Source: Candidatus Xenobia bacterium (GTDB lineage Bacteria; Vulcanimicrobiota; Xenobia; Xenobiales; QWHO01). From it: a stretch of DNA of 64,000 bases. Position numbers and translations under genes: made by a program. The stretch spans positions 20,667 to 84,666 of the forward strand of contig BTUM01000027.1 in NCBI GenBank assembly GCA_045863235.1, in the 5' to 3' direction. How positions within the stretch are numbered: the stretch's first letter is position 1; every line of letters starts with the position of its first letter. Shown here piece by piece: positions 32,100-53,651 of this stretch. The notes below the pieces were generated by a model, which was not told the DNA's origin, searched no databases, and saw nothing but the letters and a program-made list of their open reading frames with translations.

Positions 32100-32978
32100 T
32101 TACTTGAGCAGCCCCTTCATGGGCTCGAACAGGCTGTCCTGAAGCCCGGCATTCACCTTGACCCCGCGATAGACCCGTGCCTGACGCAGAACCTGGTCGA
32201 CGTAAATCTCCAGCCGCATGGGAAGATAGCGACCGTCTTCGAGTTGCTTGATGTCGCGGTAGACGACCTTCTTTTCACCGGGCCCGCTGGAGCCTTCGCC
32301 CTTGACCTTCACGACGAGTTGCAGGGGCACACGCCGAGCCGGGTCGATCCAGACCCGCGTCGGCAGGTCGGGGTGCTCAGGATTGGAGATCTCCACCACT
32401 TTTACGGGAATGCCCTCGAAAGACTCCGAGCCCACCAGCTTGTAGTCGTCATTGGCGTCGTGGGGATACTTCTGCAGACTGAAGGGGAGCTGCAAGCTCG
32501 GCTGCTGAGTATCGGCCCCCTTCTTGACGGGGTACTGGCCCATGGAGATGAACATCCACATGTTGCTGCCATCGCGAATGATGACGGCTTGCTTACCATC
32601 GAGTTGAGTGCCGGGCTCGTGGAACACGGTATCCACTCGAAGTCGATTGGGAAACTTGTAGTAAACCCGGTCGGTGCCGGAAGGAAGGAGGTTTCCCACC
32701 CCATCCTGCTCGACCAGTTCGCTGCACTCGATCTCCAGAATCAGGTCGCGAATGGGCAATCCCTGAGCTGGCGTGTAGAGATTGTCAACCAGCTGACGGG
32801 CTTCGCTGGAAGAGACTCCGGGGACCGGGCCGGGGACTGGAGAGCCTGTCGCAGTTGGGGAGGCGGCGGGATTGGATGGGCCGGTCACACGACCGCTGGG
32901 GTAGTTTTGAGCCAGAGCTGGCCAGCCGGCCAGACACAAAAGCAGGGCGAGACACAGGACCATCGACCTGGAGTACAC
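32100..32978 (-). CDS. LolA-like / outer-membrane lipoprotein-sorting protein
   Basis: Signal peptide; YYKFPNRLRVD, VWID...PLQ, VNAGLQDSLFE pattern. Confidence 0.7.
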   Translation of the reverse strand: MYSRSMVLCLALLLCLAGWPALAQNYPSGRVTGPSNPAASPTATGSPVPGPVPGVSSSEARQLVDNLYTPAQGLPIRDLILEIECSELVEQDGVGNLLPSGTDRVYYKFPNRLRVDTVFHEPGTQLDGKQAVIIRDGSNMWMFISMGQYPVKKGADTQQPSLQLPFSLQKYPHDANDDYKLVGSESFEGIPVKVVEISNPEHPDLPTRVWIDPARRVPLQLVVKVKGEGSSGPGEKKVVYRDIKQLEDGRYLPMRLEIYVDQVLRQARVYRGVKVNAGLQDSLFEPMKGLLK

Positions 32979-33124: not shown

Positions 33125-33613
33125 GTGAGCGAGCAGGCGGGCGACCAGACACTTCAAGATCCGTCCATGAGCAAGCTGAAGGCACAACTGCCGCAAGAAA
33201 CTGCTCAGGCGCCTGAGCCCGAGCGGGTGAATGAGCGCCTGATTCAGCTGGAGGATGCTGCTCGCAAGACAGCCGAGGGTGAGTGGTCGGCTGAAGAGCT
33301 TGGCGAGTTCCTGGACGGCATCATTCGCATTCTCAACGAGCGCGAGCAGCAGATCCGCGAGATCGAGATTCCCCCTGAGGCCGTGGAGGACTTTCGTGAG
33401 GAGCTCGAGGTCGGCTTCTCCGGTATCCAGCTCTACACCGAGGGCGTCCAGCGCATGCTGCTGTTCGTGGAAGACCCCAACCCGGCGCACCTGGAGGAAG
33501 GGCTCGAGCTGGCGCGCCAGGGCAATGACCACATCAACGAGGCCATGCGCATCAACCGCGAGAATCGCCGCAAGCTCGAAGAAATGTACATCGACGCCTC
33601 CACCATGATGTAA
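33125..33613 (+). CDS. Acidic helical-bundle hypothetical protein
   Basis: SD GGGAGG, GTG start; single copy of the helical unit. Confidence 0.75.
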   Translation: MSEQAGDQTLQDPSMSKLKAQLPQETAQAPEPERVNERLIQLEDAARKTAEGEWSAEELGEFLDGIIRILNEREQQIREIEIPPEAVEDFREELEVGFSGIQLYTEGVQRMLLFVEDPNPAHLEEGLELARQGNDHINEAMRINRENRRKLEEMYIDASTMM

Positions 33614-33635: not shown

Positions 33636-33668
33636 AAAAAAGCCCGGGCTTCGAGGCCCGGGCTTTTT
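33636..33668. terminator. Bidirectional intrinsic terminator
   Basis: AAAAAAGCCCGGGC-TTCGAG-GCCCGGGCTTTTT between convergent genes. Confidence 0.88.
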
Positions 33669-33681: not shown

Positions 33682-35103
33682 TCAGCTTCGGAAATACTGG
33701 TGCCACATCTCGTTGACGCGTTGCATGGTCATCGCCTGGTTGACGGTCGACTCCTGGAAGGTCTTCATCCAGTAGTCCATGGTTTCTTTCATGATCTTCC
33801 AGCGCTCGGCCTCATGCTTTTGCCGCTCGGCCCAGATCTGCATCCAGATGTCGCGAGCCCCTTCCTGGTCCTGAAGGATCTGCTGCATTCGGCGAGCCTG
33901 GTCAGCCGCGGACATGGTCGGGCCGCCAGGACCACCGGGGCCTCCCGGGCCGGACGGGGGAATCCCGCTCCCGCCGGGCGGAACACCGCCACCACCGGGC
34001 GGGATGCCGCTCCCACCGGGCGGAACGCCGGTCCCCCCAGGGGGAATTCCGCTCCCTCCGGGTACGAATGCGCTGCCCCCAGGAGGCACACCGCCGCCGC
34101 CTCCAGGGGGAAGGCCCGAGCCGCCTCCAGGAGGAGTTGCTCCGCCTCCATTACCGGGCGCCTCGGCCACCGGCGAGGAGAGCAGGCCCGGAGCATTGGT
34201 GGAGCCGAGCAGCTGCTGCGCGGGTGGGCCTTGCAGGGCCAGACCGGACTGCTGGCCGACCAGCTGGTTTCCGCCCGGAGCCACGGGACCGCCGCCGTTG
34301 CCGGCCAGAGTCACCAGGTTCGTCCCGGCGGGAGTGCCGCCCAGGCTGTAGACCAGGCCCCTGCCCGTATTGGCGATCTGCTCCATCAGGCCGTACTGAC
34401 TGAGCTTGTCTCCGTAGGCTTTGAGCTCGGCGTTGCCAGGATCACTGGCCAGTTGAGCCGCGACTTCTTTGCTGGCTGCCTGACGGAAGATATCGATCGC
34501 GGGCGTCTGCTTGCCGGCTGCCCGATCGGCTTCGAACGCCTGGTTCAAAGCATCTCCGAAGGCAGGATTCTTAGCCAGTTGCGGGGGAACGTTGGTGCTG
34601 ATGTCGCCTTCCAGCTGGTTCAGTTGCGCAGAGGCCACATTGATGGCCGCCTGACCAGCGGCCGCGCCACCGGGCAACCCCTGACCCATCAGAGCCTTCC
34701 CCTCGTTCGCGAAGGCTGACTTGAAGCCATCCGGCGCCACCGAGACCAGCTCCACAAGCTGTTTGCCAAGTTGCTCAGGATCAAGAACTTCGGCCTGGCT
34801 CCCCGATTCGGCCCGAGGGGTGTTCTCGCGCCTGACCAGCTCGCGCGACTGGGACTCTTCGCCCTGGCGCGTCTGCTTGGCGCCGGCCTGGCCGGTGAGG
34901 CCCAGGTGGGTCGCGTTCTCCAGGTGCTCAGCGTGACGCTCCTGGTGGCTGAGGGTCACCTCGTCGTTTCGCTGCTCGACGGAGGTTCCGTCCGTCTTGC
35001 GAGTGGTTCCGGTGACCGCAGTCTGGCCCACGTGCTCGGTGCGCTTGACGAGGGCCTGCTGATTCCCGACCGCCGGATTGATGGGACTTCCACTTGTAGC
35101 CAC
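33682..35103 (-). CDS. 473-aa protein with PPGG linker and C-terminal domain homologous to the 81-aa triplicated protein
   Basis: SD AAAGGAG then GTG 35103; C-terminus aligns without gaps (AERWKI..ET, TVNQA, W..Y..S). Confidence 0.82.
   Translation of the reverse strand: MATSGSPINPAVGNQQALVKRTEHVGQTAVTGTTRKTDGTSVEQRNDEVTLSHQERHAEHLENATHLGLTGQAGAKQTRQGEESQSRELVRRENTPRAESGSQAEVLDPEQLGKQLVELVSVAPDGFKSAFANEGKALMGQGLPGGAAAGQAAINVASAQLNQLEGDISTNVPPQLAKNPAFGDALNQAFEADRAAGKQTPAIDIFRQAASKEVAAQLASDPGNAELKAYGDKLSQYGLMEQIANTGRGLVYSLGGTPAGTNLVTLAGNGGGPVAPGGNQLVGQQSGLALQGPPAQQLLGSTNAPGLLSSPVAEAPGNGGGATPPGGGSGLPPGGGGGVPPGGSAFVPGGSGIPPGGTGVPPGGSGIPPGGGGVPPGGSGIPPSGPGGPGGPGGPTMSAADQARRMQQILQDQEGARDIWMQIWAERQKHEAERWKIMKETMDYWMKTFQESTVNQAMTMQRVNEMWHQYFRS
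33950..34145 (-). repeat. Coding 21-bp tandem repeat ([LVI]PPGG[GST]G, ~8-9 units)
   Basis: Visible in the translation: LPPGGGG-VPPGGSA...IPPGGTG-VPPGGSG-IPPGGGG. Confidence 0.8.
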
Positions 35104-35134
35104 GAAGCTCGCTCCTTTATCCCAGGTGTGTGGA

Positions 35135-35190
35135 GTATACCAGCCTGCGCTGAAGGCGTAAACGTCGAGTTTGTTTCCAAACTGTAAACA
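35135..35190 (-). promoter_or_regulatory. Promoter TTTACG-N17-TATACT with upstream box TGTTTCCA-aac-TGTAAACA
   Basis: Read directly; box at 35172-35190. Confidence 0.6.
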
Positions 35191-35319: not shown

Positions 35320-35565
35320 CTAGCTCTTGATGTAGTCGCTCCATTTGTTGAACATCTTGTCCTGCGTCTTGGCCTGGTTGACGGTCACGTCCTGCTGAAT
35401 CTCGAAAATCTTCGTCTGTGTCTCGCGCAGAATCTTCCAGCGCTCGGCCTGCTGCTTTTGCGTATCGGCCATCATCTGGGTCTGAATGGTCTGGGCCTGC
35501 ATCTGGTCGCTCAGGGCCATCTGGGCGATCGAGGCGGCGTTGGCGGCTCCACCGATGAGTAACAT
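35320..35565 (-). CDS. 81-aa helical protein, copy 3 (candidate pilin/needle subunit)
   Basis: SD AGGAGGG; protein identical to copies 1 and 2. Confidence 0.88.
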   Translation of the reverse strand: MLLIGGAANAASIAQMALSDQMQAQTIQTQMMADTQKQQAERWKILRETQTKIFEIQQDVTVNQAKTQDKMFNKWSDYIKS

Positions 35566-35683: not shown

Positions 35684-35929
35684 TTAGCTCTTGATATAGT
35701 CGCTCCACTTGTTGAACATCTTGTCCTGCGTCTTGGCCTGGTTGACCGTGACGTCCTGCTGAATTTCGAAGATCTTGGTCTGCGTCTCGCGCAGAATCTT
35801 CCAGCGCTCGGCCTGCTGCTTCTGCGTATCGGCCATCATCTGGGTCTGAATGGTCTGGGCCTGCATCTGGTCGCTCAGGGCCATCTGGGCGATCGAGGCG
35901 GCGTTGGCTGCTCCACCAATGAGTAGCAT
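35684..35929 (-). CDS. 81-aa helical protein, copy 2
   Basis: SD GGGAGG; own promoter TTTACT-N17-GATAGA upstream. Confidence 0.88.
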   Translation of the reverse strand: MLLIGGAANAASIAQMALSDQMQAQTIQTQMMADTQKQQAERWKILRETQTKIFEIQQDVTVNQAKTQDKMFNKWSDYIKS

Positions 35930-36139: not shown

Positions 36140-36385
36140 CTAGCTCTTGATGTAGTCGCTCCACTTGTTGAACATCTTGTCCTGCGTCTTGGCCTGGTTG
36201 ACCGTGACGTCCTGCTGAATTTCAAAGATCTTCGTCTGGGTCTCACGCAGAATCTTCCAGCGCTCGGCCTGTTGCTTCTGCGTGTCGGCCATCATCTGGG
36301 TCTGGATGGTCTGGGCCTGCATCTGGTCACTCAGGGCCATCTGGGCAATTGAAGCTGCGTTGGCTGCACCACCGATTAAGAGCAT
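36140..36385 (-). CDS. 81-aa helical protein, copy 1
   Basis: SD GAAGGGG; own promoter TTTACT-N17-GATAAT upstream. Confidence 0.88.
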   Translation of the reverse strand: MLLIGGAANAASIAQMALSDQMQAQTIQTQMMADTQKQQAERWKILRETQTKIFEIQQDVTVNQAKTQDKMFNKWSDYIKS

Positions 36386-36495: not shown

Positions 36496-36810
36496 TCAAT
36501 CCACGTGCGTCTGGTTCACAACCAGTTTGACGCCTGCCGCCTTGAGGTCTTCCACCAGCTTCTCGTTGTTCTCGTAGAGGGTCAGCACGGTGGCGTCGCG
36601 GGCGGCCGTGACCACCACCTCCATCATTTCCAGAAAGAGCTTGGGATCCACCGAGGGGGACTCGGAAAGGCGCTTGAGCAGGTCGGTGTTCTGGGGACGC
36701 TTCATCTCCCGGGCCCAGCTCTCGAGATACATCCGATTGAAGATGCTGAGCATCGCGGGGGCGCTGAGGCCGAGCTGACCTTCCAGATCGCTGGCGGTGG
36801 CTTCTTCCAT
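36496..36810 (-). CDS. Small acidic hypothetical protein
   Basis: SD GGAGGT; 104 aa; directly follows the aminotransferase gene. Confidence 0.65.
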   Translation of the reverse strand: MEEATASDLEGQLGLSAPAMLSIFNRMYLESWAREMKRPQNTDLLKRLSESPSVDPKLFLEMMEVVVTAARDATVLTLYENNEKLVEDLKAAGVKLVVNQTHVD

Positions 36811-40053: not shown

Positions 40054-42192
40054 TTAGACCTGGACCATTCCCACCGAGTTGACGTTGACTTTTGGGGCGA
40101 TTTCGTTCCAAGAGAGCAGCACCAGGTTGGGGAAGGAGCGCTCGGTCAATTTGCGCAGGGCCGAGCGAACCGGGGGTGAGCACAACAAGATCGGCTGGAG
40201 GCCGCGCTCCTGCAACTGCTGCACCTGGCCCGAGATGGCCTGCAGGATCTCCTGGCCGGTATTGGGGTCCAGGGTCAGGAACGAGCCCGCCTCAGTGCGC
40301 TGGATGGCCGACTGGATGACCTGCTCGATGGACGGGTCGAGCGTGATCACGTTGATCGTGCCCTCATTGTTCATGTACTCTTTGCAGATCACCCGGCTGA
40401 GAGCCACCCGCACGAACTCGGTGAGCATCTCAGGGTCTTTGGTGATGTGCACGTTGTCGGCCAGTGTCTCCAGAATGGTGACCAGGTCGCGGATGGAGAC
40501 CCGTTCTTTGACCAGATTCTGGAGCACCTTCTGAACTTCGCCCAGGGTCAGGGCGTCGGGGATGACCTCCTTGACCACGGCCGGGTGGGTCTTCTTGACG
40601 GTGTCGATGAGGGCCTGAACCTCCTGGCGGCCGAGCAGCTCGTTGGCGTGGCCGCGCACGACCTCGGTCAATTGGGTCGCCACCACGCTCACCGGGTCGA
40701 AGATCATACAACCGAGCCGCTCGGCGTCGCCACGCTGCTCGGGCGAGATCCAGACGCCGGGCATGCCGTAGGTCGGGTCGACCGTCTTGGTGCCGCGCAG
40801 ATTCTTCAGCTTCTCTTCCGGGCCGATGGCCAGGAACTGATTGATCTGAACCTCGCCCTGAGCCACCTCGATCTCCTTGATCTTGATGACGTAGGCATTG
40901 GGCTTGAGCTGCAAGTTGTCGCGGAAGCGCACACCGGGAACCACGATACCGAGCTCGAGGGCGATGTGACGACGAATCGAGGTGACGCGCTCGAGTAGCT
41001 TGGCGCCCTGGTTGGGGTCCACCAGAGAGAGGAGGCCGCGTCCCACTTCCAGCGAGATGGGGTCGACCTGCATCAACTGCACGACGCTCTCTGGCTTCTT
41101 GACCTCGGCCTTCTTCTTCTGGTCTTGCTCCTGGGCCTGAACGTCGGCAACCTGGACCGACTTCTTGGTCAGAATCGTGCCCACGAAGAACATCAGGCCG
41201 CCCAGGCAGAAGAAGGGAAGTGGCGGGAAGGCAAACAGCCCTACCACTCCCAGACCCCCGAGCAGGATCATAAAGCCGGCAGCCATTTTGAGCGCGCCCG
41301 GCTGGGCGGTGATCTGGCGGGTCACGTCGGAGCCCAGGTTGGAGTCGGAAGCGGCGCGCGAGACCACCATACCCATCGAGGTCGACATCAAGAAGGCGGG
41401 AAGCGTGGTGATGAGGCCGTTTCCGATGGAAAGAATGGCGTAGATGTTGATGGCGTGGCCAGCCGACATCTTGTGGTAGAGCACGCCCACCAGGATGCCG
41501 CCGATCACGTTCACGACCATGATGACGATGGCCGCCATCGCGTCGCCTTTGACGAACTTGCCGGCACCGTCCATAGCGCCGTAGAAGTCGGCTTCCTTTT
41601 CGATCTGGCGCCGTTTGTTCTTGGCGCCTTCGGCATCGATCAGGCCAGCGTGCAGGTCGGCGTCGATGGCCATCTGTTTACCGGGCATCGCGTCCAGGGT
41701 GAAGCGGGCGGCCACCTGGGCGATACGCTCGGCACCGTTGGTGATCACCATCAGCTGAATGATGATCAAGATGATGAACATGATGAAGCCGACGACCAGG
41801 TTGCCGCCTACCACGACCTCACCGAAGGCGGGGATCAGGTGGCCGGCGCCGATGGGCTTCTTGCTGACCGGGTCGAGCACGTTGCCGTGCAGCAGGATCA
41901 TACGCGTGGCCGACACGTCCAGGGCCAGCCGGAAGAGGGTGGCCACCAGCAGCAGGGTCGGGAAGACGGCGAATTCGAGGGGCTCGGCGATGTAGATCGA
42001 GATCAGGATGGTGATCAAGGAGCCGGCGATGTTCACCACCAGCAGAAGGTCCAAGAAGTCGGGCGGCATGGGCACGATCAGCATCATCACGATGCCGATC
42101 ACGACCACGGCGATGCCGATGTCTGAGAACTTTAAAAGCTTGAGTAATGGATGGTCGGGTAAGCCGTCAGCTGGGTTCGGTTGTCCGGCCAT
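40054..42192 (-). CDS. flhA: Export gate FlhA (SctV family)
   Basis: FPTLLLVATLFRLAL, ARFTLDAMPGKQMAIDADL, FYGAMDGAGKFVKGDA. Confidence 0.97.
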   Translation of the reverse strand: MAGQPNPADGLPDHPLLKLLKFSDIGIAVVVIGIVMMLIVPMPPDFLDLLLVVNIAGSLITILISIYIAEPLEFAVFPTLLLVATLFRLALDVSATRMILLHGNVLDPVSKKPIGAGHLIPAFGEVVVGGNLVVGFIMFIILIIIQLMVITNGAERIAQVAARFTLDAMPGKQMAIDADLHAGLIDAEGAKNKRRQIEKEADFYGAMDGAGKFVKGDAMAAIVIMVVNVIGGILVGVLYHKMSAGHAINIYAILSIGNGLITTLPAFLMSTSMGMVVSRAASDSNLGSDVTRQITAQPGALKMAAGFMILLGGLGVVGLFAFPPLPFFCLGGLMFFVGTILTKKSVQVADVQAQEQDQKKKAEVKKPESVVQLMQVDPISLEVGRGLLSLVDPNQGAKLLERVTSIRRHIALELGIVVPGVRFRDNLQLKPNAYVIKIKEIEVAQGEVQINQFLAIGPEEKLKNLRGTKTVDPTYGMPGVWISPEQRGDAERLGCMIFDPVSVVATQLTEVVRGHANELLGRQEVQALIDTVKKTHPAVVKEVIPDALTLGEVQKVLQNLVKERVSIRDLVTILETLADNVHITKDPEMLTEFVRVALSRVICKEYMNNEGTINVITLDPSIEQVIQSAIQRTEAGSFLTLDPNTGQEILQAISGQVQQLQERGLQPILLCSPPVRSALRKLTERSFPNLVLLSWNEIAPKVNVNSVGMVQV

Positions 42193-42209
42193 AGATTACG
42201 TCCTTTCCG

Positions 42210-43310
42210 TCATCGCCGCGCCCCGGTCTTGCCGCGCCGCCGCTTCATCTCGCGTTTTCGTTTCAACTTGATCACGTAGGCCAGCACCTCGGCCACCGCC
42301 TTGTAGAGCTCGGTGGGGATGGCCTGGCCCACCTCGCAGGCTCCGAACAGCGTTCGCGCCAGCTCGACGTTCTCGATGATGGGTACGTCGTGGTCCTCAG
42401 CCTTGACCTTGATCTGCTGGGCCACCAGGTTCTCCCCCTTGGCCACGACCATGGGAACCGGATCGACCCCGGTTTCGTACTTCAGGGCAATGGCCAGATG
42501 GGTAGGGTTGGTCACCACCGCCGAGGAGTTGGGCACCTCCTCCATCATGCGGCCCTGGGCGCCCTGGCGCATGAGCTGGCGCATCTTGGCCTTGACCTGA
42601 GGGTTCCCCTCGGTATCCTTATACTCGTCTTTCAACTCTTGCATGCTCATGCGCATCTGCTTCATGAACTGCTTGTACTGGAACAAGTAGTCGAGAATGG
42701 AGAGAGCCGTCATGCCGATCAGCACCTGGAAGGTGAGGCGCACCAGAATCGTCTTCACCAGGGCGATGGTCTGGTTGAGGTCCATCTGCGGGGAGGCAGC
42801 GAACTTGGGCAACTCGCCCTTGACGCACTTGTAGCAGATCCAGCCGATAACCACCACTTTCAGGATCTGCTTGACCAGTTCCATGACCGACTTCATGGAG
42901 AAGATCCGCTTGAACCCCTCGATGGGGTTGATCTTGCTCAAGGACGGCTTGAGGGGCTCGACCGTAAACAGAAACTTGACCTGGGCTACGTTGGCCAGAA
43001 TGGCCATGATGAACACCGAGGCCAGCAGTGGGGCCAGCACGATGAGCACGGTGCCCATCATCAACATCGATTCGCCCATCAGGTTGCGCTCGTTCATCTG
43101 GAAAGTGGGGATCAGCATCCAGATGTACTTGGTGTAGTCGATGATGCGGGCGAGCATCATCTTGCCGCAGGTCAGCAGCACCCCGTAGCAGGCCAGCAGA
43201 AGCAGCGTGGAGATGATCTCCTGGCTCTTCAGTACCTGGCCTTTCTTGCGCGCTTCCTGGAGCTTATGCTCGGTCGGTTCCTCGGTCTTGTCACTGTCGC
43301 TGCCGCCCAC
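42210..43310 (-). CDS. flhB: Export switch protein FlhB (SctU family)
   Basis: KTEEPT...ARKKGQ, EGNPQVK, NPTH autocleavage motif. Confidence 0.97.
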   Translation of the reverse strand: MGGSDSDKTEEPTEHKLQEARKKGQVLKSQEIISTLLLLACYGVLLTCGKMMLARIIDYTKYIWMLIPTFQMNERNLMGESMLMMGTVLIVLAPLLASVFIMAILANVAQVKFLFTVEPLKPSLSKINPIEGFKRIFSMKSVMELVKQILKVVVIGWICYKCVKGELPKFAASPQMDLNQTIALVKTILVRLTFQVLIGMTALSILDYLFQYKQFMKQMRMSMQELKDEYKDTEGNPQVKAKMRQLMRQGAQGRMMEEVPNSSAVVTNPTHLAIALKYETGVDPVPMVVAKGENLVAQQIKVKAEDHDVPIIENVELARTLFGACEVGQAIPTELYKAVAEVLAYVIKLKRKREMKRRRGKTGARR

Positions 43311-43332
43311 GCTGCCTCACCTCCTCTCGGGC

Positions 43333-44130
43333 TCAATCTGGGGCCATCAAACGGATGGTCTGCATGATCTGATCCTGATTGACCGCGAACTGCTGAGTCA
43401 GCAGCTGGCAAACGTAGGGAAGCCCTACCGTCAACAAGCTCAAACCGATACCTATATTCATTGGAAAGCTTAACATGAAAACGTTCATCTGAGGAGCCAC
43501 GCGGGCCAGCAATCCCAGAGCGATCTGGCCGATGAAGAGGGCTGCCAGAGCGGGCGCGGCAATCTGAATACCGATAGAGAAGACGTCCCCGGCTGCGGAG
43601 ACAAAGCCCTCTACGATGTTCCCGGGCATCTGAAAGTGAGTAACCGGCACGACCTGGAAGCTCTCCCAGATCGCGATCACCATCTTGTGGTGGCCGTCGA
43701 GCAACAGATAGAGCTGCATGGCCAGATAGAAGTGCAAACGACGGATCAGGTTGATGGCGCCGTGGCTGGAGGGGTCGGCCGAGGCGGCCACCGAGAGGCC
43801 CAGTTGGATGTCCAGCATCTCGCCCCCGAACTGGGCCGCTGCCAGCACCATGAAGGAGATGAACCCGATGGCCAGTCCCACCCCGACCTGGGTGAGAAGG
43901 GCTCCGAAAAAAGTCCGAGCTTCCATCACCTCGTAGATGTTCTCGGGCACCGGCACGGTAGGGAAGACGCAGCAAGTCATGGCCACCGCCGTCCCGATGC
44001 GAATCTGCGTGTTGAAATGCTTGGAACCCCAGATGGGGGCCTGCACCATGATCAGCACGATGCGAGCAAAGGTCAGGCACCAGACGATCAGGAGCGCGTA
44101 AGCCTGCTGGTAGCCATTGGGCTCCCCCAT
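43333..44130 (-). CDS. fliR: Export protein FliR
   Basis: LDIQLGLS, LDGHH, LARVAPQMNVF. Confidence 0.94.
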   Translation of the reverse strand: MGEPNGYQQAYALLIVWCLTFARIVLIMVQAPIWGSKHFNTQIRIGTAVAMTCCVFPTVPVPENIYEVMEARTFFGALLTQVGVGLAIGFISFMVLAAAQFGGEMLDIQLGLSVAASADPSSHGAINLIRRLHFYLAMQLYLLLDGHHKMVIAIWESFQVVPVTHFQMPGNIVEGFVSAAGDVFSIGIQIAAPALAALFIGQIALGLLARVAPQMNVFMLSFPMNIGIGLSLLTVGLPYVCQLLTQQFAVNQDQIMQTIRLMAPD

Positions 44131-44423
44131 CAGTGGGGGCCCACCTTGGCGATGGTGGAGAAGACCTCCCGGATGAACGTGCCCAGGTTGCCGATCAGCC
44201 AACTCCCGCACAGCACCATGGAAAGGAACGTAACCACGATCTTGGGCACGAAGCCCAGCGTCTGCTCCTGCACCTGGGTGGTGGCCTGCAGGATGCTGAT
44301 GACCAGACCGACGGCCAGGGCCGAGATCAGCATCGGCGCCGACAGGACCAGAATGAGGTAGAGCGCCCGGGTGCACAGGCCCATCACGAAGGTATCGGTG
44401 AAGATCTCGGCGGCCAGGATCAT
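44130..44423 (-). CDS. fliQ: Export protein FliQ, copy 2
   Basis: LQATTQVQEQTLGFVPKI. Confidence 0.93.
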   Translation of the reverse strand: MILAAEIFTDTFVMGLCTRALYLILVLSAPMLISALAVGLVISILQATTQVQEQTLGFVPKIVVTFLSMVLCGSWLIGNLGTFIREVFSTIAKVGPH

Positions 44424-44719
44424 TTGGGTCCCATCCTCTCGATGCAGCCCAGAATGCGCACCGTGAACTCGACGCACGTTCCGGCAATCCAGGGCCCATA
44501 CATCAGCACCGACAAAAACGTGGCCACGATCTTGGGGACGAAGGAGAGGGTCTGCTCTTGCACCTGAGTGGCCGCCTGCAGCACGCTGATTAGAATACCC
44601 ACCAGGATGGCTGCCAGCAGCATCGGCGCCGACAATACCAACATGTTGCGAAGAGCTTCGGTGATCATGCCCAGCATGAACTGCTTGGTGAAGAATTCTT
44701 CAACGGCCAGCAAGACCAC
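44420..44719 (-). CDS. fliQ: Export protein FliQ, copy 1
   Basis: LQAATQVQEQTLSFVPKI. Confidence 0.93.
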   Translation of the reverse strand: MVLLAVEEFFTKQFMLGMITEALRNMLVLSAPMLLAAILVGILISVLQAATQVQEQTLSFVPKIVATFLSVLMYGPWIAGTCVEFTVRILGCIERMGPK

Positions 44720-44786
44720 GGCGGCTCCACGCTCCTTCCCTCAGTTTCCGGTCAGTCTCTCGAAACCCCGGCCCTGCCGGGGCGCA

Positions 44787-45566
44787 TCATTGTTCGATTC
44801 GATTGAAACTGTTAACCAGGCCGTTGATGATGATGTGCCAACCGTCGATGCTGACAAACATCAACAGCTTGAAGGGGAGCGAAATGGTCATCGGGCTGAG
44901 CATGAACATACCCATCGACATCAGCACCGAGGCCACGATCATGTCGATCACCAGAAATGGTATGTAAAGTAAGAAGCCAATCTCGAACGAGGTCTTGATC
45001 TCGGAGAGGATGTAGGAAGGCAGCAACACGTAGAAGGGGACGCTCTTGCGGTTATCCACCTTCATCTTGCTCAAGCCCAGAAAAAGACCCAGGTCCTTGT
45101 CTCGAGTTTGGGCCAGCATGAACTCCTGCAGGGGCGCGACGAACTTTTTGAAGGCCTCGGCCTGCTTGATATCCCCTTTGTAGTAGGGCTGAATTGCTTC
45201 CCGGTTCATTTTCTCACCCACCGGCGCCATGATGAACATGGTCAGGAACAACGAGAGAGCCATCAGCACCTGGGTAGGCGGCACCTGCTGGGTGCCCAGA
45301 GCAGTGCGCAAGAAGGACAGTGTCACCGTCACCCGGATGAAGGCGGTCGTCATGACCAGGAGGTAGGGCGCCAGGGACAGCGTCGTGAGCATCAAGCTCA
45401 CCTGGATGAAGGTCGATACCTCGGCCTTCTCCTCCATCGGTTTGCCGTTGATGGTGATGTCCGGCAGTTGGATGGGGGGTAACTGAGCCCAGGCCTCACG
45501 GGTCAGGACACCGACCAGGGCGACCATTCCCAGAGCCCAGAGCCACTTTTTGCGGGTGCTGCTCAT
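44787..45566 (-). CDS. fliP: Export protein FliP
   Basis: Signal peptide; LRTALGTQQVPP, PFLVIDMIVASVLMSMGMFMLSP, LPFKL..F...DGW. Confidence 0.96.
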   Translation of the reverse strand: MSSTRKKWLWALGMVALVGVLTREAWAQLPPIQLPDITINGKPMEEKAEVSTFIQVSLMLTTLSLAPYLLVMTTAFIRVTVTLSFLRTALGTQQVPPTQVLMALSLFLTMFIMAPVGEKMNREAIQPYYKGDIKQAEAFKKFVAPLQEFMLAQTRDKDLGLFLGLSKMKVDNRKSVPFYVLLPSYILSEIKTSFEIGFLLYIPFLVIDMIVASVLMSMGMFMLSPMTISLPFKLLMFVSIDGWHIIINGLVNSFNRIEQ

Positions 45567-45576
45567 AAGCCTCTCC

Positions 45577-46269
45577 TTACTTCCGGGCACCCAACCCGGG
45601 GATGATGGACAGGTAGTGGCGCAAAATCTCTCCGTGGGGAGCCGGCATCGCCGGGGGCACAGTCGCCTCGGCATTGGACTCGGACTCGGCCTTCGGCTCG
45701 GGCATCGCGAGCTGATCGGAACCAAGCTCGCACAGGGTGTTAACGTTCTGCTCGGTCTGGCCGACCACCAGGTACTTCTTGCCCACCCGCACCAGGCTGA
45801 TGCTGGCTCCCTGAGCCAGGCTCTGTCGCTCGAGCACTTCGAGCTGGCGCAACTTCTTGCCGGGCCCAACCCCCGGCAGCCAGCGGGCCACCATGCGCAG
45901 GCTGGCGTAAGCCAGAAAGCCGACCAGGAAGAGAATGATGACCATCTGCTGCAACTTTTGCACGAAGATGGAGCTGTTGGAGGTTTGCCCCTGAGCGTCG
46001 GGGCTCCACGCGGGGGCTTGGGAAGTCGGGAGGGCCTGGGGAGCGGGAGAGGGGGCGGGGGAGACGACGAACGGTGGAGCCGGAGGGACCGAACTGGCCG
46101 TGGGTGAGGGCGCCACCAGGTCGCCCAAGGTCCGTTGAGGGGGGGGCTGAGCCCGACCGCCGCGGCTCAGCGAGAGCAAGCACAAAGACAGCACCGCCAA
46201 CAGCAAAAACGAGCCCAGCCCCCGTCGCAGGTGCCTGGAATCCCAGCGGCGCAGGCGCTTGAGGTTCAC
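45577..46269 (-). CDS. fliO: FliO/FliZ-like protein
   Basis: Position before fliP; TM then LEVLERQSL...LVRVGKKYLVVG. Confidence 0.8.
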   Translation of the reverse strand: MNLKRLRRWDSRHLRRGLGSFLLLAVLSLCLLSLSRGGRAQPPPQRTLGDLVAPSPTASSVPPAPPFVVSPAPSPAPQALPTSQAPAWSPDAQGQTSNSSIFVQKLQQMVIILFLVGFLAYASLRMVARWLPGVGPGKKLRQLEVLERQSLAQGASISLVRVGKKYLVVGQTEQNVNTLCELGSDQLAMPEPKAESESNAEATVPPAMPAPHGEILRHYLSIIPGLGARK

Positions 46270-46565
46270 GGGGAAATCAACTCGGTTATGCGCACGGCGT
46301 AGTTTCCGTCGATCTCGACCACCTCTCCGCGAGCGATCAAAGTTCCGTTGACCAGAAGGTCGACCGGCTCGCCCTGCTCCTTGTCCAGCTCAATCACGCT
46401 ACCTGCGGCGATTTTGAGGATATCGCGCACGGTGCGCATGCCGCGACCCATCTCGGCCTCGACGATGAAGGGAACGTCGTAAAGCATGTTGAGGTCCTCG
46501 CGCTCGCGAAAGACCGAGGGCGGGCCACTACTTCGTCGGCGGGGGACCGGCGTAAAGTCGTCCAT
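46266..46565 (-). CDS. fliN: FliN-like SpoA-domain protein, copy 2
   Basis: GSVIELDK..GEPVDLLVNG..IARGEVV. Confidence 0.9.
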   Translation of the reverse strand: MDDFTPVPRRRSSGPPSVFREREDLNMLYDVPFIVEAEMGRGMRTVRDILKIAAGSVIELDKEQGEPVDLLVNGTLIARGEVVEIDGNYAVRITELISP

Positions 46566-46566
46566 C

Positions 46567-46869
46567 TTACTTGACGATCTCGGTGATGCGCACTCCGTAC
46601 TGGCCGTCGATCTCGACCACCTCGCCACGGGCGATGCGCTTGCTGTTGACCAGAATGTCGATGGGCTCACCAGCTTCCTTGTCGAGCTCGATCACTGAGC
46701 CCACGGTAAGCTTGAGGATGTCCTTGACCTGACGACGAGCCTTGCCAAGCTCGGCCTGAACGATCAACTGGACGTCCTTGAGGAGGTCGATGCTGCTGGG
46801 CGAGCCTTGAGCCTGAGCGTCTGCCTGCAGCATGCCGAATTGAACGGCGCGGGGGCCCTGGTCACTCAT
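46567..46869 (-). CDS. fliN: FliN-like SpoA-domain protein, copy 1
   Basis: LLKDV, GSVIELDKEAGEPIDILVN...IARGEVV. Confidence 0.92.
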   Translation of the reverse strand: MSDQGPRAVQFGMLQADAQAQGSPSSIDLLKDVQLIVQAELGKARRQVKDILKLTVGSVIELDKEAGEPIDILVNSKRIARGEVVEIDGQYGVRITEIVK

Positions 46870-47839
46870 CGTATTCTTCGTCTCCCTCTTGCAGCACTTT
46901 GAGCACCTTGGCCGCCATGCGCCCATCCTTGATGCCGGGTTGGCCGAGGAACTTGGTCTTGTCGTTCACCTTGATCCGCAACGGGGCGCTGATCTCGGTA
47001 TCCAGGCGAATGGTATCGCCGACCTCGATGGTCAGAAGATCCTGAAACAGGATCTCAGCCCGCCCGAGGCTGATGGCCACGGGCACTTTGGCCATCTCCA
47101 GGCTCCGTCCGAAAATGGGCGGGCCAGGAGCGGCCGTGGCACCCGTGCCGGAATCGGTGCGGGTGAGGATGTAGCGGTCGAAGGAAGCCTGCGGAATGGC
47201 GTTCTTGAGGTAGCGGAAGGGCAGGCACACGTTCACCAGACCCTGGGCGTGGGCCACGTCGGCCTGGAACGAAGTGACCACCATCGTCTCCGAAGGGGGG
47301 GCGATGTGCACCGCCATCGGGTTGAACTCCAGGCCCACGAAGGCAGGCTTGGTGTCGGGTCGGATCTCCCTCCAGGCTTCACCGTAGGCTTCCAGCATCT
47401 TGAGCAGGGGCTTTTGCAGGATCACCTTCTCGAGATCCGTGAAGAACGGCCGCACCTCTTCTCGGGGGGGAGCACCCTTGCCGCCCATCAGTTTGTCGAA
47501 GAGCGCAAAGGACAGGTCGAAGTCGATGTCCATGAAGGCCAGCACATCGGGCTCGGCCTTGAAGACGAGGATAGGCGTGGGGTCAGGCAACATGTTGAGG
47601 TAGGAATGGTAGCTGCGCGGCTTGACGCTCACCATTTCCATCTGGAAACGCGTCTGCAACAAGGGGGCCAGGGCCGTCACGACGCTTTCGGCAAAGCCGA
47701 CGAAGAGCTTTTCGAGAAAGCGCTGCTGATCCGCCGAGAACTTGTCCATCTGGCGGAAATCGTACGCGCTCGCGCCTTCGTAGCGGCGGCGCTGGGCCGA
47801 CCGCATCACGTCGTTGAAGCTTCCCACACTTTCCCGCAA
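46862..47839 (-). CDS. fliM: FliM lacking the N-terminal CheY-binding peptide
   Basis: YDFR..DKFS, LMGGKG, EFNP, C-terminal SpoA domain; TTG 47839 after GGAGG. Confidence 0.9.
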   Translation of the reverse strand: MRESVGSFNDVMRSAQRRRYEGASAYDFRQMDKFSADQQRFLEKLFVGFAESVVTALAPLLQTRFQMEMVSVKPRSYHSYLNMLPDPTPILVFKAEPDVLAFMDIDFDLSFALFDKLMGGKGAPPREEVRPFFTDLEKVILQKPLLKMLEAYGEAWREIRPDTKPAFVGLEFNPMAVHIAPPSETMVVTSFQADVAHAQGLVNVCLPFRYLKNAIPQASFDRYILTRTDSGTGATAAPGPPIFGRSLEMAKVPVAISLGRAEILFQDLLTIEVGDTIRLDTEISAPLRIKVNDKTKFLGQPGIKDGRMAAKVLKVLQEGDEEYDE

Positions 47840-48016
47840 GTAGCGACCTCCACAGCCCATCCCCCCACCGAGTCAAGGGGCTTCGAGCCTTGTTGAGTGC
47901 TTTCCCGCCCCGGCAAGATTATAGCACTGACGCCAGGTCAGCACGATGAAACATTCGGCTCTCACGGAAACAGCCCAGGCCTTCCGGCCTGGGCACGCTT
48001 ACCGCGGGACTTGAAG

Positions 48017-48832
48017 TTAGCGGACGAGACCCAGCGCGGACTGGGTCAGTTTGTCCATGGCGCGGAAGGCGGCCATGTTCGCTTCGTAGTTCTGCTTGGC
48101 CATACCGATGGCGGCGGCCTGCTGGGCGAAATCGACGTTGGCCAGTTCGAGGCTACCGGGAGCCACGCTACCCAGGGCACCCTGACCGGCCACACCGACA
48201 ACCGAGCCACCCGAGTGCTCGGACTCGGCGAAGGTCGTCGTTCCGGTCTTCTTCAAGGCGCTGGGATTGGCGAAAGAGGCCACACCCACCTGATAGAGCG
48301 GCGTTGAGGTGGTGATGGTCTGGTTGGTCACCGGGTCGGTCAGAGTGGACTCGCCGTAGAGCTTGCCCGTCTCGTCGAAGTGGAACCCTGTGTATTTCCC
48401 GGCATACAGCTTGGTCTGGGGATCCAGCGAAAGGTCAATGGCCCCGAGGTCACCCGAGATGTTGCCCTGCGCGTCAAGCTTGAAGCCCTGCACGCGCTTG
48501 CCGTCTTGCATACAGAGCTGCCCGTTCTGCCAGGTGAAGCGGCCGTCTCGGGTGTAGTGATTCTTGACGCCATCGGAAACCATGAAGAAACCCTGTCCGT
48601 TCATCGCCAGGTTGGTCGGCGTCTGGGTTTTGAAAATCTGACCCTGGCTAAAGACGATGCCGCCGTGGCGGGTCTGGGCGCCACCCGACATCGTCTGGTT
48701 CATGATGTCAGAGAACTGAACGGTTTCCGCCTTGTAACCCGGAGTGAACTGGTTCTTCAAGTTCTCCGAGTAAGTGTTCAGCATCTCCTGGTTCTGCATG
48801 ATCGAGCTGACCTGATAATTGAAATCAAACAT
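48017..48832 (-). CDS. Short hook / distal rod protein (FlgE/FlgG family)
   Basis: NLKNQFTPGYK, NLAMNGQGFF, YTRDGRF, FANPSAL, LELANVD; 271 aa. Confidence 0.88.
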   Translation of the reverse strand: MFDFNYQVSSIMQNQEMLNTYSENLKNQFTPGYKAETVQFSDIMNQTMSGGAQTRHGGIVFSQGQIFKTQTPTNLAMNGQGFFMVSDGVKNHYTRDGRFTWQNGQLCMQDGKRVQGFKLDAQGNISGDLGAIDLSLDPQTKLYAGKYTGFHFDETGKLYGESTLTDPVTNQTITTSTPLYQVGVASFANPSALKKTGTTTFAESEHSGGSVVGVAGQGALGSVAPGSLELANVDFAQQAAAIGMAKQNYEANMAAFRAMDKLTQSALGLVR

Positions 48833-48947
48833 CCCGCGAAGCGTCCTCCTTCTTGTTGAACCCTCTGTGTGTGTTTCTACAGAACTGCGCGCCCTTGACT
48901 TCCCGTTCTCATTCTAGACCTGTATCGTTGCCGCAGGTTTACCGCGG

Positions 48948-48966
48948 TGTTAACACGATGTTAACA
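48948..48966. promoter_or_regulatory. Box TGTTAACA-cga-TGTTAACA upstream of the flgE/G-fliM-flhA unit
   Basis: Perfect tandem palindromes, 11-bp period; -10 TAGAAT on the minus strand at 48911-48916. Confidence 0.7.
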
Positions 48967-49059
48967 TGGTCGCCCCAAACCGGCCGGGTAGGACGAAGAG
49001 GCCCGCGACAGCACACGGTTTGCCGTGTACCCGCGGGCCCCCGAAGCCCACCTCGGTGC

Positions 49060-49980: not shown

Positions 49981-50019
49981 TCAAACACCCCTCATTGCGA
50001 TTTTTCTCCTGAGAAAAGC

Positions 50020-50664: not shown

Positions 50665-50788
50665 GCCGGGTTCCTCCTTCGCTATCCGGGACTGCGATGG
50701 CAACACCACGTTAAGCCGGGTGGTAGGCCGGAGGAAGTCCAGGGGGCGATTGGGCGCATACTCAGTATAGCTGTCCAGCCTCCCGGGG

Positions 50789-51265
50789 TCAACATTCCGA
50801 CTTCCCTCCGGTCGCCTGCTCGCGAGCGAACTTGATGGTAGCGAGCTCGTCGATCATCTTGGCTTCCTCGTAGTCCATCTCGGCCTGCCAGGCCTCCTGG
50901 CTCTGCTCCTTGTGTTTTTCGTAAGTTTTTCGCTTCATGGCGGCTTTGAGAAGATTCTCTCGCTGTTGGACGATCGCGATGGCAAGTTCTTGCAGGCGAA
51001 GCTCCTGATACTTGATCTTGTTCTCGAGGCTCTTGATGTGCTGCGGGTAGAACCGCAGCTCGTTGATGCTCACCTGGCCCACGGCCTGCTTGTGGCGCAC
51101 CTCGATGTGTGTCTGTTGCAGCTGATGCTCGAGCTGGGCTTTGACCTGGCGCTCGTGGGCCTCTTCCTGAATCAGCTTGCCGAGCTTCTCTTTCTCTTCA
51201 TCTTCCTTCTTACGGGCCAGCTCGAGCACTTTCTCGAGACGATATCGAAAGCGTTTGGGGGGCAT
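50789..51265 (-). CDS. fliJ: Export stalk FliJ
   Basis: FRYRLEKVL start, coiled coil, EAKMIDE; follows fliI. Confidence 0.87.
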   Translation of the reverse strand: MPPKRFRYRLEKVLELARKKEDEEKEKLGKLIQEEAHERQVKAQLEHQLQQTHIEVRHKQAVGQVSINELRFYPQHIKSLENKIKYQELRLQELAIAIVQQRENLLKAAMKRKTYEKHKEQSQEAWQAEMDYEEAKMIDELATIKFAREQATGGKSEC

Positions 51266-53641: not shown

Positions 53642-53651
53642 GGCCAGCCAC

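What the first reader, a model, noticed from the sequence alone, without database searches (positions are those of the whole stretch)
33682..35103. Long paralog carrying the same domain at its C-terminus: minor subunit, tip or cargo-displaying pilin
Seen: the last ~62 aa (DQEGARDIWMQIWAERQKHEAERWKIMKETMDYWMKTFQESTVNQAMTMQRVNEMWHQYFRS) align without gaps to the 81-aa protein (DQMQAQTIQTQMMADTQKQQAERWKILRETQTKIFEIQQDVTVNQAKTQDKMFNKWSDYIKS). They are joined by a PPGG heptad-repeat linker to a helical middle domain and a disordered N-terminus. The gene has its own promoter and box. Inference: it co-polymerises via the C-terminal domain and displays an N-terminal domain on a flexible tether.
Basis: partly seen in the sequence, partly recalled or inferred. 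Interest (0 to 1): 0.8.

Follow-up and report, generated by a model that had tools for sequence, protein, structure and literature searches.

The report
Long partner of a flagellar-linked mini-helix protein
This 473-residue protein ends in the same ~75-residue helix as a tiny, hyper-conserved protein encoded three times next door, at the tail of a flagellum-type secretion gene cluster in a genome where no flagellin was found, and it is likely a minor partner that would be exported and would dock onto whatever assembly the small protein forms.

Summary
ORF 33682-35103 (-) encodes 473 aa whose last 75 aa match the neighbouring 81-aa protein (BLASTP E 4e-16; profile-profile 99.7%, E 3e-26). The model has a disordered N-terminus, a confident helical bundle, a G/P heptad-repeat linker and a terminal helix.

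"Pilin" is not the right frame. The genes lie downstream of a complete flagellar type III export/basal-body cluster (FlgB to FlhA). In this genome I found no flagellin, FliD, FliS, FlgM or MotB plug.

Across the phylum (Eremiobacterota by record names) the order flhA – small acidic protein – 78-81-aa helix gene(s) – mid-size paralogue – long paralogue recurs. The long gene is the conserved "class C" member: an N-terminal motif block, a variable-length low-complexity spacer and the shared helix. Its helical bundle is a genus-specific insertion, so cargo display is not the conserved role.

Elsewhere the helix module sits at C-termini of TIR, CHAT, RHS and VgrG proteins, and behind a double-glycine leader beside a peptidase-ABC exporter.

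Best reading (0.4): a minor subunit, predicted to be exported, that co-assembles with the major helix protein. The scan had already noted the small family in another genome.

The parts
33682..35103 (-). Long paralogue ('class C'), 473 aa, GTG start
   Evidence: ORF and RBS. Orthologues share the start. RNA-library contigs span 33702-35107 and 33709-35104.
34786..35103 (-). Residues 1-106: low-confidence N-terminal region holding the motifs conserved among class C orthologues (..I(N)...N.QQ.VGGQ.. and D.V.LS....ENA.H.G)
   Evidence: pLDDT below 50; motifs in alignment A6 and the raw sequences.
34333..34785 (-). Residues 107-257: helical bundle, a genus-specific insertion
   Evidence: Helices 109-253 at pLDDT 82-93. 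Absent from 12 of 15 aligned orthologues, present in the other same-genus row, partly matched in one more. BLAST finds it in 4 of 44 genomes of the class, all of one genus. No fold match above generic helical bundles.
33916..34332 (-). Residues 258-396: Gly/Pro-rich spacer with G-x-G-(I/V)-P-P-G heptad repeats
   Evidence: 57% G+P; 21-nt repeat x4.7 at 33965-34062; length varies by indels within the genus.
33685..33915 (-). Residues 397-473: C-terminal helix homologous to the 81-aa protein
   Evidence: BLASTP E 4e-16; hhalign 99.7%; 100% identical within the genus while the rest of the protein falls to 64%.
35134..35162 (-). Promoter-like site TTTACG-17-TATACT
   Evidence: Consensus scan: 2 sites found against 0.3 expected.
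33640..33659 (-). Terminator-like hairpin plus T run after the long gene
   Evidence: sequence.
35320..35565 (-). 81-aa helix protein, copy 3 (major paralogue, 'class A')
35684..35929 (-). 81-aa helix protein, copy 2
36140..36385 (-). 81-aa helix protein, copy 1, with a promoter-like site at 36450-36422
36496..36810 (-). 104-aa acidic protein ('F2'), conserved just upstream of the small genes; candidate chaperone (inferred)
   Evidence: Found in 11 loci directly before a small gene; single copy in this genome; no family match.
40054..58697 (-). Flagellar type III export and basal-body cluster: FlgB, FlgC, FliE, FliF, FliG-like, FliG, FliH, FliI, FliJ, SLT, FliK, 271-aa FlgE/F/G-like, FliM, 2 FliN, FliP, FliQ, FliR, FlhB, FlhA
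   Evidence: Pfam; NCBIfam for the 271-aa protein.
33125..33613 (+). 162-aa helical protein ('F11'), conserved neighbour convergent with the long gene; paralogue at 31437-32078
   Evidence: Clustered with neighbours in G003, G002 and G108 loci; no family.
32100..32978 (-). LolA-like protein, conserved neighbour
   Evidence: Weak Pfam LolA_like/MucB_RseB match; syntenic in 4 loci.

Best explanation
The 473-aa protein is the long ('class C') paralogue of a hyper-conserved 78-81-aa single-helix protein family encoded at the distal end of a flagellar-type type III secretion cluster. It is predicted to be exported by that apparatus and would join the assembly formed by the abundant small protein through the shared C-terminal helix, as a minor (adaptor, junction or tip-like) subunit.

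Shown:
- the homology of the C-terminal helix
- the four-part architecture (motif-bearing N-terminus, genus-specific helical bundle, G/P heptad spacer, helix)
- the recurring gene order flhB-flhA-(aminotransferase)-F2-small gene(s)-mid-size paralogue-long paralogue
- no match to any of the canonical late flagellar families searched in this genome
- the gene's presence as a separate contig in RNA libraries

Inferred:
- The small protein polymerises into an extracellular, needle- or Hrp-pilus-like fibre that takes the place of flagellin.
- F2 is its export chaperone.
- The long protein uses its conserved N-terminus as export signal or second contact, and its helix to insert into the same lattice. 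The spacer, and in this genus the bundle, would be left exposed.
- With no MotB plug match and a single MotA/ExbB-family match, the machine would secrete or inject rather than rotate.
For: (1) Homology. BLASTP E 4e-16; hhalign 99.7%, E 3e-26. Residues conserved in both classes include core positions (W43, I45, I53, I56, W75) and polar ones (K37, K44, T49, Q50, N63). That pattern is what a shared packing surface would give.

(2) Context. A full flagellar export, ring and rod cluster lies upstream on the same strand.
- F2 precedes a small gene in 11 of the 17 sources examined.
- In 9 of the 10 that hold both flhA and a small gene, F2 lies between them.
- By my reading of the listed rows, 34 of 51 family-positive genomes have a member within about 6 kb of a full-length flhA.

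(3) No match to late flagellar families in this genome (97.6% complete).
- Flagellin_N and Flagellin_C: nothing over the cut-off.
- FliD_C, FliS, MotB_plug, FlgM: no match at E<=0.1.
- Only 4 Flg_bbr_C proteins and 1 MotA_ExbB match.

(4) Phylum pattern.
- 40 of 51 family-positive genomes have no Flagellin_N match.
- For 10 of the 11 genomes with both, the listed rows show two or more full-length flhA (not visible for G102). In the four I checked (G066, G060, G014, G020) flagellin lies 6-14 kb from the other flhA.
- In a quick FlhA tree the helix-linked copies separate from the flagellin-linked ones (SH-aLRT 100).

(5) A graded paralogue set: a major 78-81-aa member in 1-3 copies, then a ~126-237-aa member, then a 215-322-aa member (473 aa here). 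The major one is 59-85% identical across the 25-sequence alignment. Class C helices are only ~26-35% identical between families, yet 100% identical within the genus.

(6) Leads pointing to type III pilus subunits. ESM Atlas feature hits fall in clusters where 23-24% of members carry HrpA_pilin (0.91/0.90, with 180/174 shared features) and in an HrpE-like cluster at 0.88. Pfam HrpA_pilin is sub-threshold in 6 of 25 small proteins (best 21.5 bits against a cut-off of 25).

(7) Export of the module elsewhere. A Blastocatellia homologue carries a double-glycine-type leader and lies ~0.9 kb downstream of a C39-peptidase ABC exporter, with two HlyD genes downstream.

(8) RNA libraries from 3 studies hold the gene. 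Contigs 33702-35107, 33709-35104 and 34043-35134 are separate from those over the small genes and over F2, and carry different depths.
Against: - No export, polymerisation or binding was tested. The co-fold tool never ran.
- The AlphaFold2 monomer of the small protein is one long helix (4-80, pLDDT 80), not the helix-turn-helix hairpin of needle subunits. No Pro/Gly turn is conserved.
- No Pfam, NCBIfam or PDB sequence match reaches significance.
- HMMs of the class C N-terminus and of the helix show nothing against four flagellins of the same phylum.
- The same helix is fused to TIR (8 of 40 long homologues scanned), CHAT and polytopic membrane proteins. These are unlikely type III substrates, so the helix may be a general coiled-coil docking or toxin module rather than a filament lattice element.
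- In this genome two metabolic genes separate flhA from the helix genes.
- RNA evidence is from contigs only. It cannot show strand, ends or level, and DNA can be present in such libraries.
Confidence: 0.4

Rival explanations
1. Secreted regulator or ruler. The long protein would be a FlgM- or FliK-like late substrate. Its disordered, variable-length body would measure or report completion of the structure. Its helix would compete with the small protein for the same chaperone (F2) or export-gate site rather than entering a polymer.
For: Class C has a disordered N-terminal half with a 'D.V.LS' motif. From memory this resembles the start of FlgM; it is not supported by any search. The spacer varies greatly in length, giving proteins of 215-473 aa, and shows indels even within the genus. 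No FlgM match was found in the genome, so that role is not otherwise accounted for.
Against: No FlgM or Flg_hook/T3S4 match in any of 15 class C proteins at E<=10. A separate FliK with the Flg_hook domain is already in the cluster. The C-terminus is homologous to the abundant structural-looking protein, not to a switch domain.
Confidence: 0.15
2. Portable effector, toxin or docking module. The helix would be a mobile C-terminal module, either toxic itself or a coiled-coil tag that loads proteins onto secretion machines. The long protein would be one more cargo or effector carrying it, with F2 as immunity or chaperone.
For: - 448 representatives match at E<=1e-3, and 118 of the top 150 carry the domain at the extreme C-terminus.
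- It directly follows the DPxG end of a 1938-aa SLH-RHS protein and ends a VgrG, the usual places of toxin or adaptor domains; a second RHS fragment appears.
- TIR fusions: 8 of 40 and one more. CHAT fusions: one and one.
- A double-glycine-leader form lies ~0.9 kb downstream of a peptidase-ABC exporter. A Desulfitobacterium form lies between two Rce1/CPBP-type genes; from memory that family is often tied to bacteriocin immunity.
Against: The small protein is far more conserved (59-85% identity in the 25-sequence alignment) and more multi-copy than toxins usually are. It is hydrophilic, with a heptad pattern typical of a soluble coiled coil. F2 lies upstream, not downstream, of the helix genes. 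The strict linkage to flhA is not explained by a free toxin cassette.
Confidence: 0.15
3. Cytoplasmic coiled-coil scaffold. The family would form an intracellular coiled-coil structure attached to the C-ring or export gate, with the long paralogue as a linker. Nothing would be exported.
For: No signal peptide; long single helix; fusions to cytoplasmic-type domains such as TIR and CHAT. This genome also has five FlhA-C-domain-only paralogues that could bind such helices.
Against: The double-glycine-leader/ABC-exporter, RHS and VgrG contexts point outward. Position after flhA, with a chaperone-like small acidic gene, is typical of exported substrates. That last point is established knowledge about type III systems, not something tested here.
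Confidence: 0.1

Closest known systems
Type III secretion needle/pilus subunits with their minor partners (SctF/PrgI-type needle, HrpA/HrpE Hrp pilus; inner-rod/adaptor SctI; tip proteins). Family knowledge recalled, apart from the HrpA/HrpE leads.
   Same: A very small helical major subunit encoded in a type III cluster, with a small acidic neighbour gene. Longer paralogues share only the C-terminal helix. The N-terminal half of the major subunit is more variable than the C-terminal half. There are weak HrpA_pilin signals.
   Different: The cluster is flagellar-type (FliF/G/M/N, FlgB/C, FliE, FliK), not an injectisome. No hairpin turn is seen. No family threshold is reached. The major subunit is hyper-conserved, whereas Hrp pilins are hypervariable (recalled).
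Flagellar late substrates: flagellin with hook-associated proteins FlgK/FlgL and cap FliD
   Same: A multi-copy, highly conserved major gene plus two or three minor paralogues that share terminal helices. They are encoded with the flagellar export apparatus. In 40 of 51 family-positive genomes no flagellin match is found.
   Different: No Flagellin_N/C, Flg_bb_rod or Flg_bbr_C match in the small or long protein. The shared element is C-terminal only. The major subunit is 78-81 aa rather than 250 aa or more.
Flagellin-less flagellar export systems (Buchnera basal bodies, PMC8109811; Lysobacter enzymogenes FT3SS, PMC7688988). I saw only the search listing and the start of each abstract.
   Same: Flagellar export and basal-body genes are kept, with no flagellin found, and are proposed to serve as secretion devices.
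   Different: Here a dedicated, hyper-conserved new protein family with graded paralogues sits at the substrate position. In some genomes the cluster coexists with a separate canonical flagellar cluster.
C-terminal modules of polymorphic toxin and conflict systems (RHS/VgrG C-terminal domains; effector-associated adaptor domains). Recalled from the literature, not read here.
   Same: A short domain at the C-terminus of RHS, VgrG, TIR and CHAT proteins, which also occurs free-standing.
   Different: No Pfam toxin or effector-associated family matches. Conservation and flhA linkage are atypical for such modules.

Membership tests
Unnamed 78-81-aa helix family (no Pfam/NCBIfam model) | C-terminal ~70-aa helix with the pattern QK..(E)RWKI..(D/E)TQ..I..IQ....N.A...D....W | tested here: met
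   BLASTP E 4e-16; hhalign 99.7%; local HMM E 7e-32.
Unnamed 78-81-aa helix family, class C orthologue group | Lies downstream of the small gene(s) on the same strand; has the N-terminal motif block, a low-complexity spacer and the terminal helix | tested here: met
   Synteny; alignment of 15 orthologues.
Type III needle / Hrp pilus subunits (SctF, HrpA_pilin PF09589, HrpE-like) | Sequence match to the family model above its cut-off | tested here: not met
   Long protein: no match. Small proteins: best 21.5 bits against a cut-off of 25; 6 of 25 at E<=10.
Type III needle / Hrp pilus subunits | Helix-turn-helix hairpin subunit that polymerises and is exported by the type III system | not testable with these tools
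   The monomer model is a single helix, which does not settle the assembled form.
Flagellar axial proteins (flagellin, FlgK/L, FliD, rod/hook) | Flagellin_N/C, Flg_bb_rod, Flg_bbr_C or FliD domains | tested here: not met
   No Pfam hits in the long or small protein. HMMs against 4 flagellins of the phylum score 1.8 bits or less.
   The N-termini MATSGSPINPAVGNQQ... and MLLIGGAANAASIAQ... have no such segment. No pilin family in Pfam.
FlgM anti-sigma-28 | PF04316 match | tested here: not met
   No match in 15 class C proteins or anywhere in the genome at E<=0.1.
FliK/SctP rulers | C-terminal Flg_hook/T3S4 domain | tested here: not met
   Absent from the long protein. Present in a separate gene at 49060-49980.
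Polymorphic-toxin C-terminal domain | Placement after the RHS DPxG motif or at the VgrG C-terminus; toxicity; cognate immunity gene | tested here: inconclusive
   Placement is seen in homologues P0201, P0164 and P0168. Toxicity and immunity were not tested. The window's protein itself has no trafficking domain.

The most novel reading that the evidence does not exclude
A lineage of Eremiobacterota has turned a flagellar type III machine, with no stator plug or flagellin found, into a non-rotating injection or fibre-spinning device. Its shaft is built from a 78-aa single-helix protein unlike any known filament subunit. Class B and C paralogues (this gene) serve as adaptor and tip. The same helix acts as a universal docking tag that lets TIR, CHAT, RHS and VgrG effectors ride on or copy the system: a new contact-dependent weapon or predation organelle.
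Probability: 0.15. Interest if true: 0.9.

Novelty: new variant of a known kind. Interest (0 to 1): 0.68.

Why it matters
If the reading holds, flagellar export machines with no detectable flagellin are not relics. Such genomes are common in this phylum: 146 of 151 sampled have FHIPEP but only 55 of 151 match Flagellin_N. These machines would build a different structure from a new, extremely constrained 78-aa subunit with graded minor partners.

That would add a third branch beside flagella and injectisomes. It would also give a testable handle, in the form of three small genes, on the cell biology of an uncultured, widespread group found in sludge, gut and soil metagenomes.

Independently of that, the helix is a compact, portable module found on TIR, CHAT, RHS and VgrG proteins and on an ABC-exported peptide. 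Its partner or target is worth finding.

Tried and rejected
- Co-fold of two copies of the 81-aa protein with the long protein's helix. No result exists either way.
- Fold searches with the long-protein model. Foldseek against the PDB gave no match at E<=0.001. VIA-align wide gave a best Z of 7.2, only generic helical bundles and long helices.
- Pfam and NCBIfam on the long protein, F2 and F11: nothing significant.
- PDB sequence profile of the small family: only CcdA at E 0.51, taken as chance.
- ESM Atlas for F2: best score 0.76, no lead.
- The 'INTN'-like start of some class C proteins as a flagellin relic. My first script ran on an empty file. The repeat against 4 flagellins of the phylum gave 1.8 bits or less and no N-terminal alignment. 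Rejected as evidence.
- BLAST of the N-terminal and middle part across the class: found in 4 of 44 genomes, all of one genus. The word-based search for the whole protein gave only 4 proteins, because the G/P repeats crowd the candidates.
- Taxonomy of the TIR/RHS/VgrG fusions: the cluster look-up gave no organism names. Whether they come from the same phylum is open.
- Literature: five searches found no paper describing this family or a helix-protein-linked flagellar cluster in Eremiobacterota. The term sets were: Eremiobacterota + flagell; Xenobia + Eremiobacter; flagellar type III secretion / lack flagellin / basal body; Eremiobacter + type III secretion; flagellar / type III secretion / without flagellin / novel filament. 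For PMC9259500 I read only passages. It mentions TXSSCAN annotation of flagella in related marine genomes. Its supplements were not opened and may list such clusters.
- Depth figures of RNA contigs are not used to rank expression, following the tool's caution.
Full report
**Observation**

The ORF at 33682-35103 on the minus strand starts at a GTG preceded by AGGAG and encodes 473 aa. Proteins of close relatives begin at the same residue.

Its last 75 residues align without gaps to residues 7-81 of the 81-aa protein encoded just upstream (31/75 identical, BLASTP E 4e-16). A profile of 25 small proteins against a profile of 15 long-paralogue C-termini gives hhalign probability 99.7%, E 3e-26.

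The 81-aa gene is present three times in tandem. The proteins are identical, and the genes differ at 13-23 of 246 nucleotides, all synonymous. That is selection on the protein, not recent copying.

- A 21-nt repeat (4.7 copies) encodes G-x-G-(I/V)-P-P-G heptads.
- Residues 258-396 are 57% Gly+Pro.
- The AlphaFold2 model (shallow alignment of 6, mean pLDDT 54) has a low-confidence N-terminus (1-106), a confident helical bundle (109-253, pLDDT 82-93), a disordered spacer and a terminal helix 399-472.
- A sigma-70-like site at 35162-35134 and a terminator-like hairpin at 33659-33640 flank the gene.
- I saw no further shared 'box' in the four upstream regions.

**Surroundings**

The same strand upstream carries a flagellar type III export and basal-body cluster: FlgB, FlgC, FliE, FliF, a FliG-like protein, FliG, FliH, FliI, FliJ, a lytic transglycosylase, FliK, a 271-aa FlgE/F/G-like protein, FliM, two FliN, FliP, FliQ, FliR, FlhB and FlhA. 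After FlhA come a homocysteine-methyltransferase/MTHFR fusion and a class-III aminotransferase. Then follow a 104-aa acidic protein (F2), the three small genes and the long gene.

The window's genome (8.36 Mb, 97.6% complete) gave no match to the canonical late flagellar families searched.
- No Flagellin_N or Flagellin_C match over the cut-off.
- No FliD_C, FliS, MotB_plug or FlgM match at E<=0.1.
- Only four Flg_bbr_C proteins and one MotA/ExbB-family match.

**Relatives**

The small protein has 199 near-length relatives at E<=0.01. Where records are named, the names are Eremiobacterota, Vulcanimicrobiota, Xenobium or Bruticola, plus some evident mislabels. None has a Pfam domain. In a 25-sequence alignment, identity to the window's protein is 59-85% and 21 columns are invariant, mostly in the C-terminal 45 residues. 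The monomer model is one helix, residues 4-80 (pLDDT 80).

In a sample of 151 genomes of the phylum:
- 51 have the family, usually in 2-9 matches
- 146 have FHIPEP
- 55 match Flagellin_N

By my reading of the listed rows, 34 of the 51 have a family member within about 6 kb of a full-length flhA, and 40 of the 51 have no Flagellin_N match. For 10 of the 11 genomes with both, the listed rows show two or more full-length flhA (not visible for G102). In the four I checked, flagellin lies 6-14 kb from the other flhA.

A quick maximum-likelihood tree of 26 FlhA proteins separates the helix-linked copies from the flagellin-linked ones (SH-aLRT 100). The careful search did not finish, and the root is at midpoint only.

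Clustering the ORFs of 16 related loci plus the window shows the recurring order flhB-flhA-(aminotransferase)-F2-small gene(s)-(phosphoesterase-like)-longer paralogues-F11-LolA-like.

**What the long gene is**

A local HMM of the helix over all loci held finds two further classes after the small gene(s) in many loci:
- a ~126-129-aa member, or 198-316 aa in some lineages ('class B')
- a 215-322-aa member ('class C')

The window's protein is class C. Fifteen orthologues share three elements:
- an N-terminal block with the motifs ..I(N)...N.QQVGGQ.Q.. and D.V.LS....ENA.H.G
- a low-complexity acidic or Pro/Gly-rich spacer of very different lengths
- the terminal helix

The confident helical bundle of the window's protein is absent from 12 of the 15 rows, present in the other row of the same genus and partly matched in one more. 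BLAST finds it in 4 of 44 genomes of the class, all of one genus. It is therefore an insertion, not the conserved 'cargo'.

Within the genus the terminal 77 residues are 100% identical while the rest drops to 64%, and the repeat region gains and loses units. Between families the class C helix is only about 26-35% identical, far less constrained than the major protein.

The genome holds about ten family members in all, including a 133-aa and a 130-aa form. In one genus of the same family that scored negative for the helix family, the same position after flhA holds a strongly diverged 81-aa Gln-rich protein followed by 199- and 280-aa proteins, with no F2.

**The helix as a module**

A profile search of 1.84 billion representatives finds 448 proteins at E<=1e-3. 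Of the top 150, 118 carry the domain within 6 residues of the C-terminus and 114 are longer than 100 aa.

Of the 40 longest that I scanned against Pfam:
- 28 have no Pfam family
- 8 have TIR (one of them with trypsin and TPR as well)
- 1 has CHAT
- 1 is a VgrG/gp5 fragment (full length 804 aa)
- 1 is a 1938-aa SLH-RHS protein in which the helix directly follows the DPxG end of the RHS core
- 1 has Ig-like domains

A further word-based search adds another RHS fragment, another CHAT protein and another TIR protein.

Outside the phylum:
- A Blastocatellia MAG encodes an 82-aa form with a double-glycine-type leader (..LNANDLKQVRGG). Its gene lies ~0.9 kb downstream of a cNMP-binding C39-peptidase ABC exporter, with two HlyD genes downstream.
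- A Desulfitobacterium isolate has an 88-aa form between two Rce1/CPBP-type genes.
- Three Acidobacteriota have 164-199-aa forms.

**Similarity leads**

For the small protein, the ESM Atlas feature search returns clusters in which 23-24% of members carry HrpA_pilin (scores 0.91 and 0.90, with 180 and 174 shared features) and an HrpE-like cluster at 0.88. Pfam HrpA_pilin is hit below threshold by 6 of 25 small proteins (best 21.5 bits, cut-off 25). These are leads, not membership.

Nothing else reached significance. That covers Pfam, NCBIfam and PDB sequence searches, fold searches of the long model and HMM comparisons with flagellins of the phylum.

**Expression**

Eight runs on record as RNA hold part of the stretch. 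In four that I laid (three studies, contigs only), separate contigs cover the long gene (33702-35107, 33709-35104, 34043-35134), the small genes and the F2 region. Their word depths differ (about 14-19, 27-232 and 2-3).

Contigs cannot show strand, ends or level, and DNA can be present in such libraries. I take this only as weak support that the long gene is transcribed as its own unit.

**Interpretation**

The best-supported reading is this. The family supplies the late substrates of a flagellar-type type III apparatus for which no flagellin, cap, flagellin chaperone or stator plug was found. The small protein is the abundant major unit, F2 is its likely chaperone, and classes B and C are minor units that share its C-terminal helix. 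This resembles the way hook-associated proteins relate to flagellin, or inner-rod and tip proteins relate to the needle.

On that reading the long protein would be exported. Its helix would insert into the same assembly, and its spacer (and in this genus the bundle) would be exposed. Homology, architecture, synteny and the negative searches for late flagellar families are shown. Export, polymerisation, co-assembly and location are inferred. I give this 0.4.

The rivals are:
- a secreted regulator or ruler (0.15)
- a portable toxin or docking module, suggested by the RHS, VgrG, TIR, CHAT and ABC-exporter contexts (0.15)
- a purely cytoplasmic coiled-coil scaffold (0.1)

The fusions to TIR, CHAT and membrane proteins are the main evidence against a pure filament-lattice role. 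A coiled-coil docking function would reconcile both readings.

**Prior notes and literature**

Five literature searches found no description of the family. For the papers on flagellin-less flagellar export systems in Buchnera and Lysobacter I saw only the search listing and the start of each abstract.

**Verdict**

'Pilin' and 'cargo display' are not supported. If it holds, this is a new variant of a known kind (type III-built structures).

Noticed in passing
G000 contigs C80:28174-29157, C3:27006-27977, C1:377670-378254, C106:14902-15816, C107:14606-15352: Five further proteins match only the C-terminal cytoplasmic half of FlhA (profile positions ~305-656) in open frames of 450-750 aa. The window holds the only full-length FlhA. 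Free-standing FlhA-C paralogues could be extra substrate or chaperone docking platforms.
   Followed up: no
window 54691-55557 (-): A second, 288-aa FliG-like protein with only the FliG_N and FliG_M domains lies between FliF and the full FliG.
   Followed up: partly
window 36817-40035 (-): A class-III aminotransferase and a homocysteine S-methyltransferase/MTHFR fusion lie between flhA and the helix genes. The aminotransferase recurs at this place in loci of three other genomes (G108, G040, G066), and both genes recur in G050. It may belong to the system, for example by modifying the exported protein.
   Followed up: partly
L138 (G050:C34) 6284-8133: A genus of the same family that scored negative for the helix family has, after flhA, a strongly diverged 81-aa Gln-rich protein followed by 199- and 280-aa proteins, with no F2. 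This is a positional analogue that has drifted far from an otherwise near-invariant family.
   Followed up: partly
L122 5896-6144 and 1951-4998: A Blastocatellia MAG encodes the core helix behind a double-glycine-type leader, ~0.9 kb downstream of a cNMP-binding C39-peptidase ABC exporter and upstream of two HlyD genes. There the module appears to be an ABC-exported peptide.
   Followed up: partly
Phylum sample: Families f15 and f20 mostly have a single, more divergent FlhA (E about 1e-190 to 1e-217). Many of these genomes have neither flagellin nor the helix family. This may be a third kind of flagellar-type system whose substrates are unknown.
   Followed up: no
window 33125-33613 (+), 31437-32078 (+), 21268-22956 (+): Three paralogues of a helical protein family (some relatives carry an N-terminal zinc ribbon) accompany the long helix gene and a LolA-like gene in several genomes. 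No known family matches.
   Followed up: partly
window 43333-44499 (-) and 44787-45869 (-): FliR (388 aa) and FliP (360 aa) each carry N-terminal extensions of about 140-160 aa ahead of the Pfam domain.
   Followed up: no
window 1956-7955 (-): A 1999-aa bacterial alpha-2-macroglobulin-like protein (MG2, bait region, A2M and bMG10 domains).
   Followed up: no
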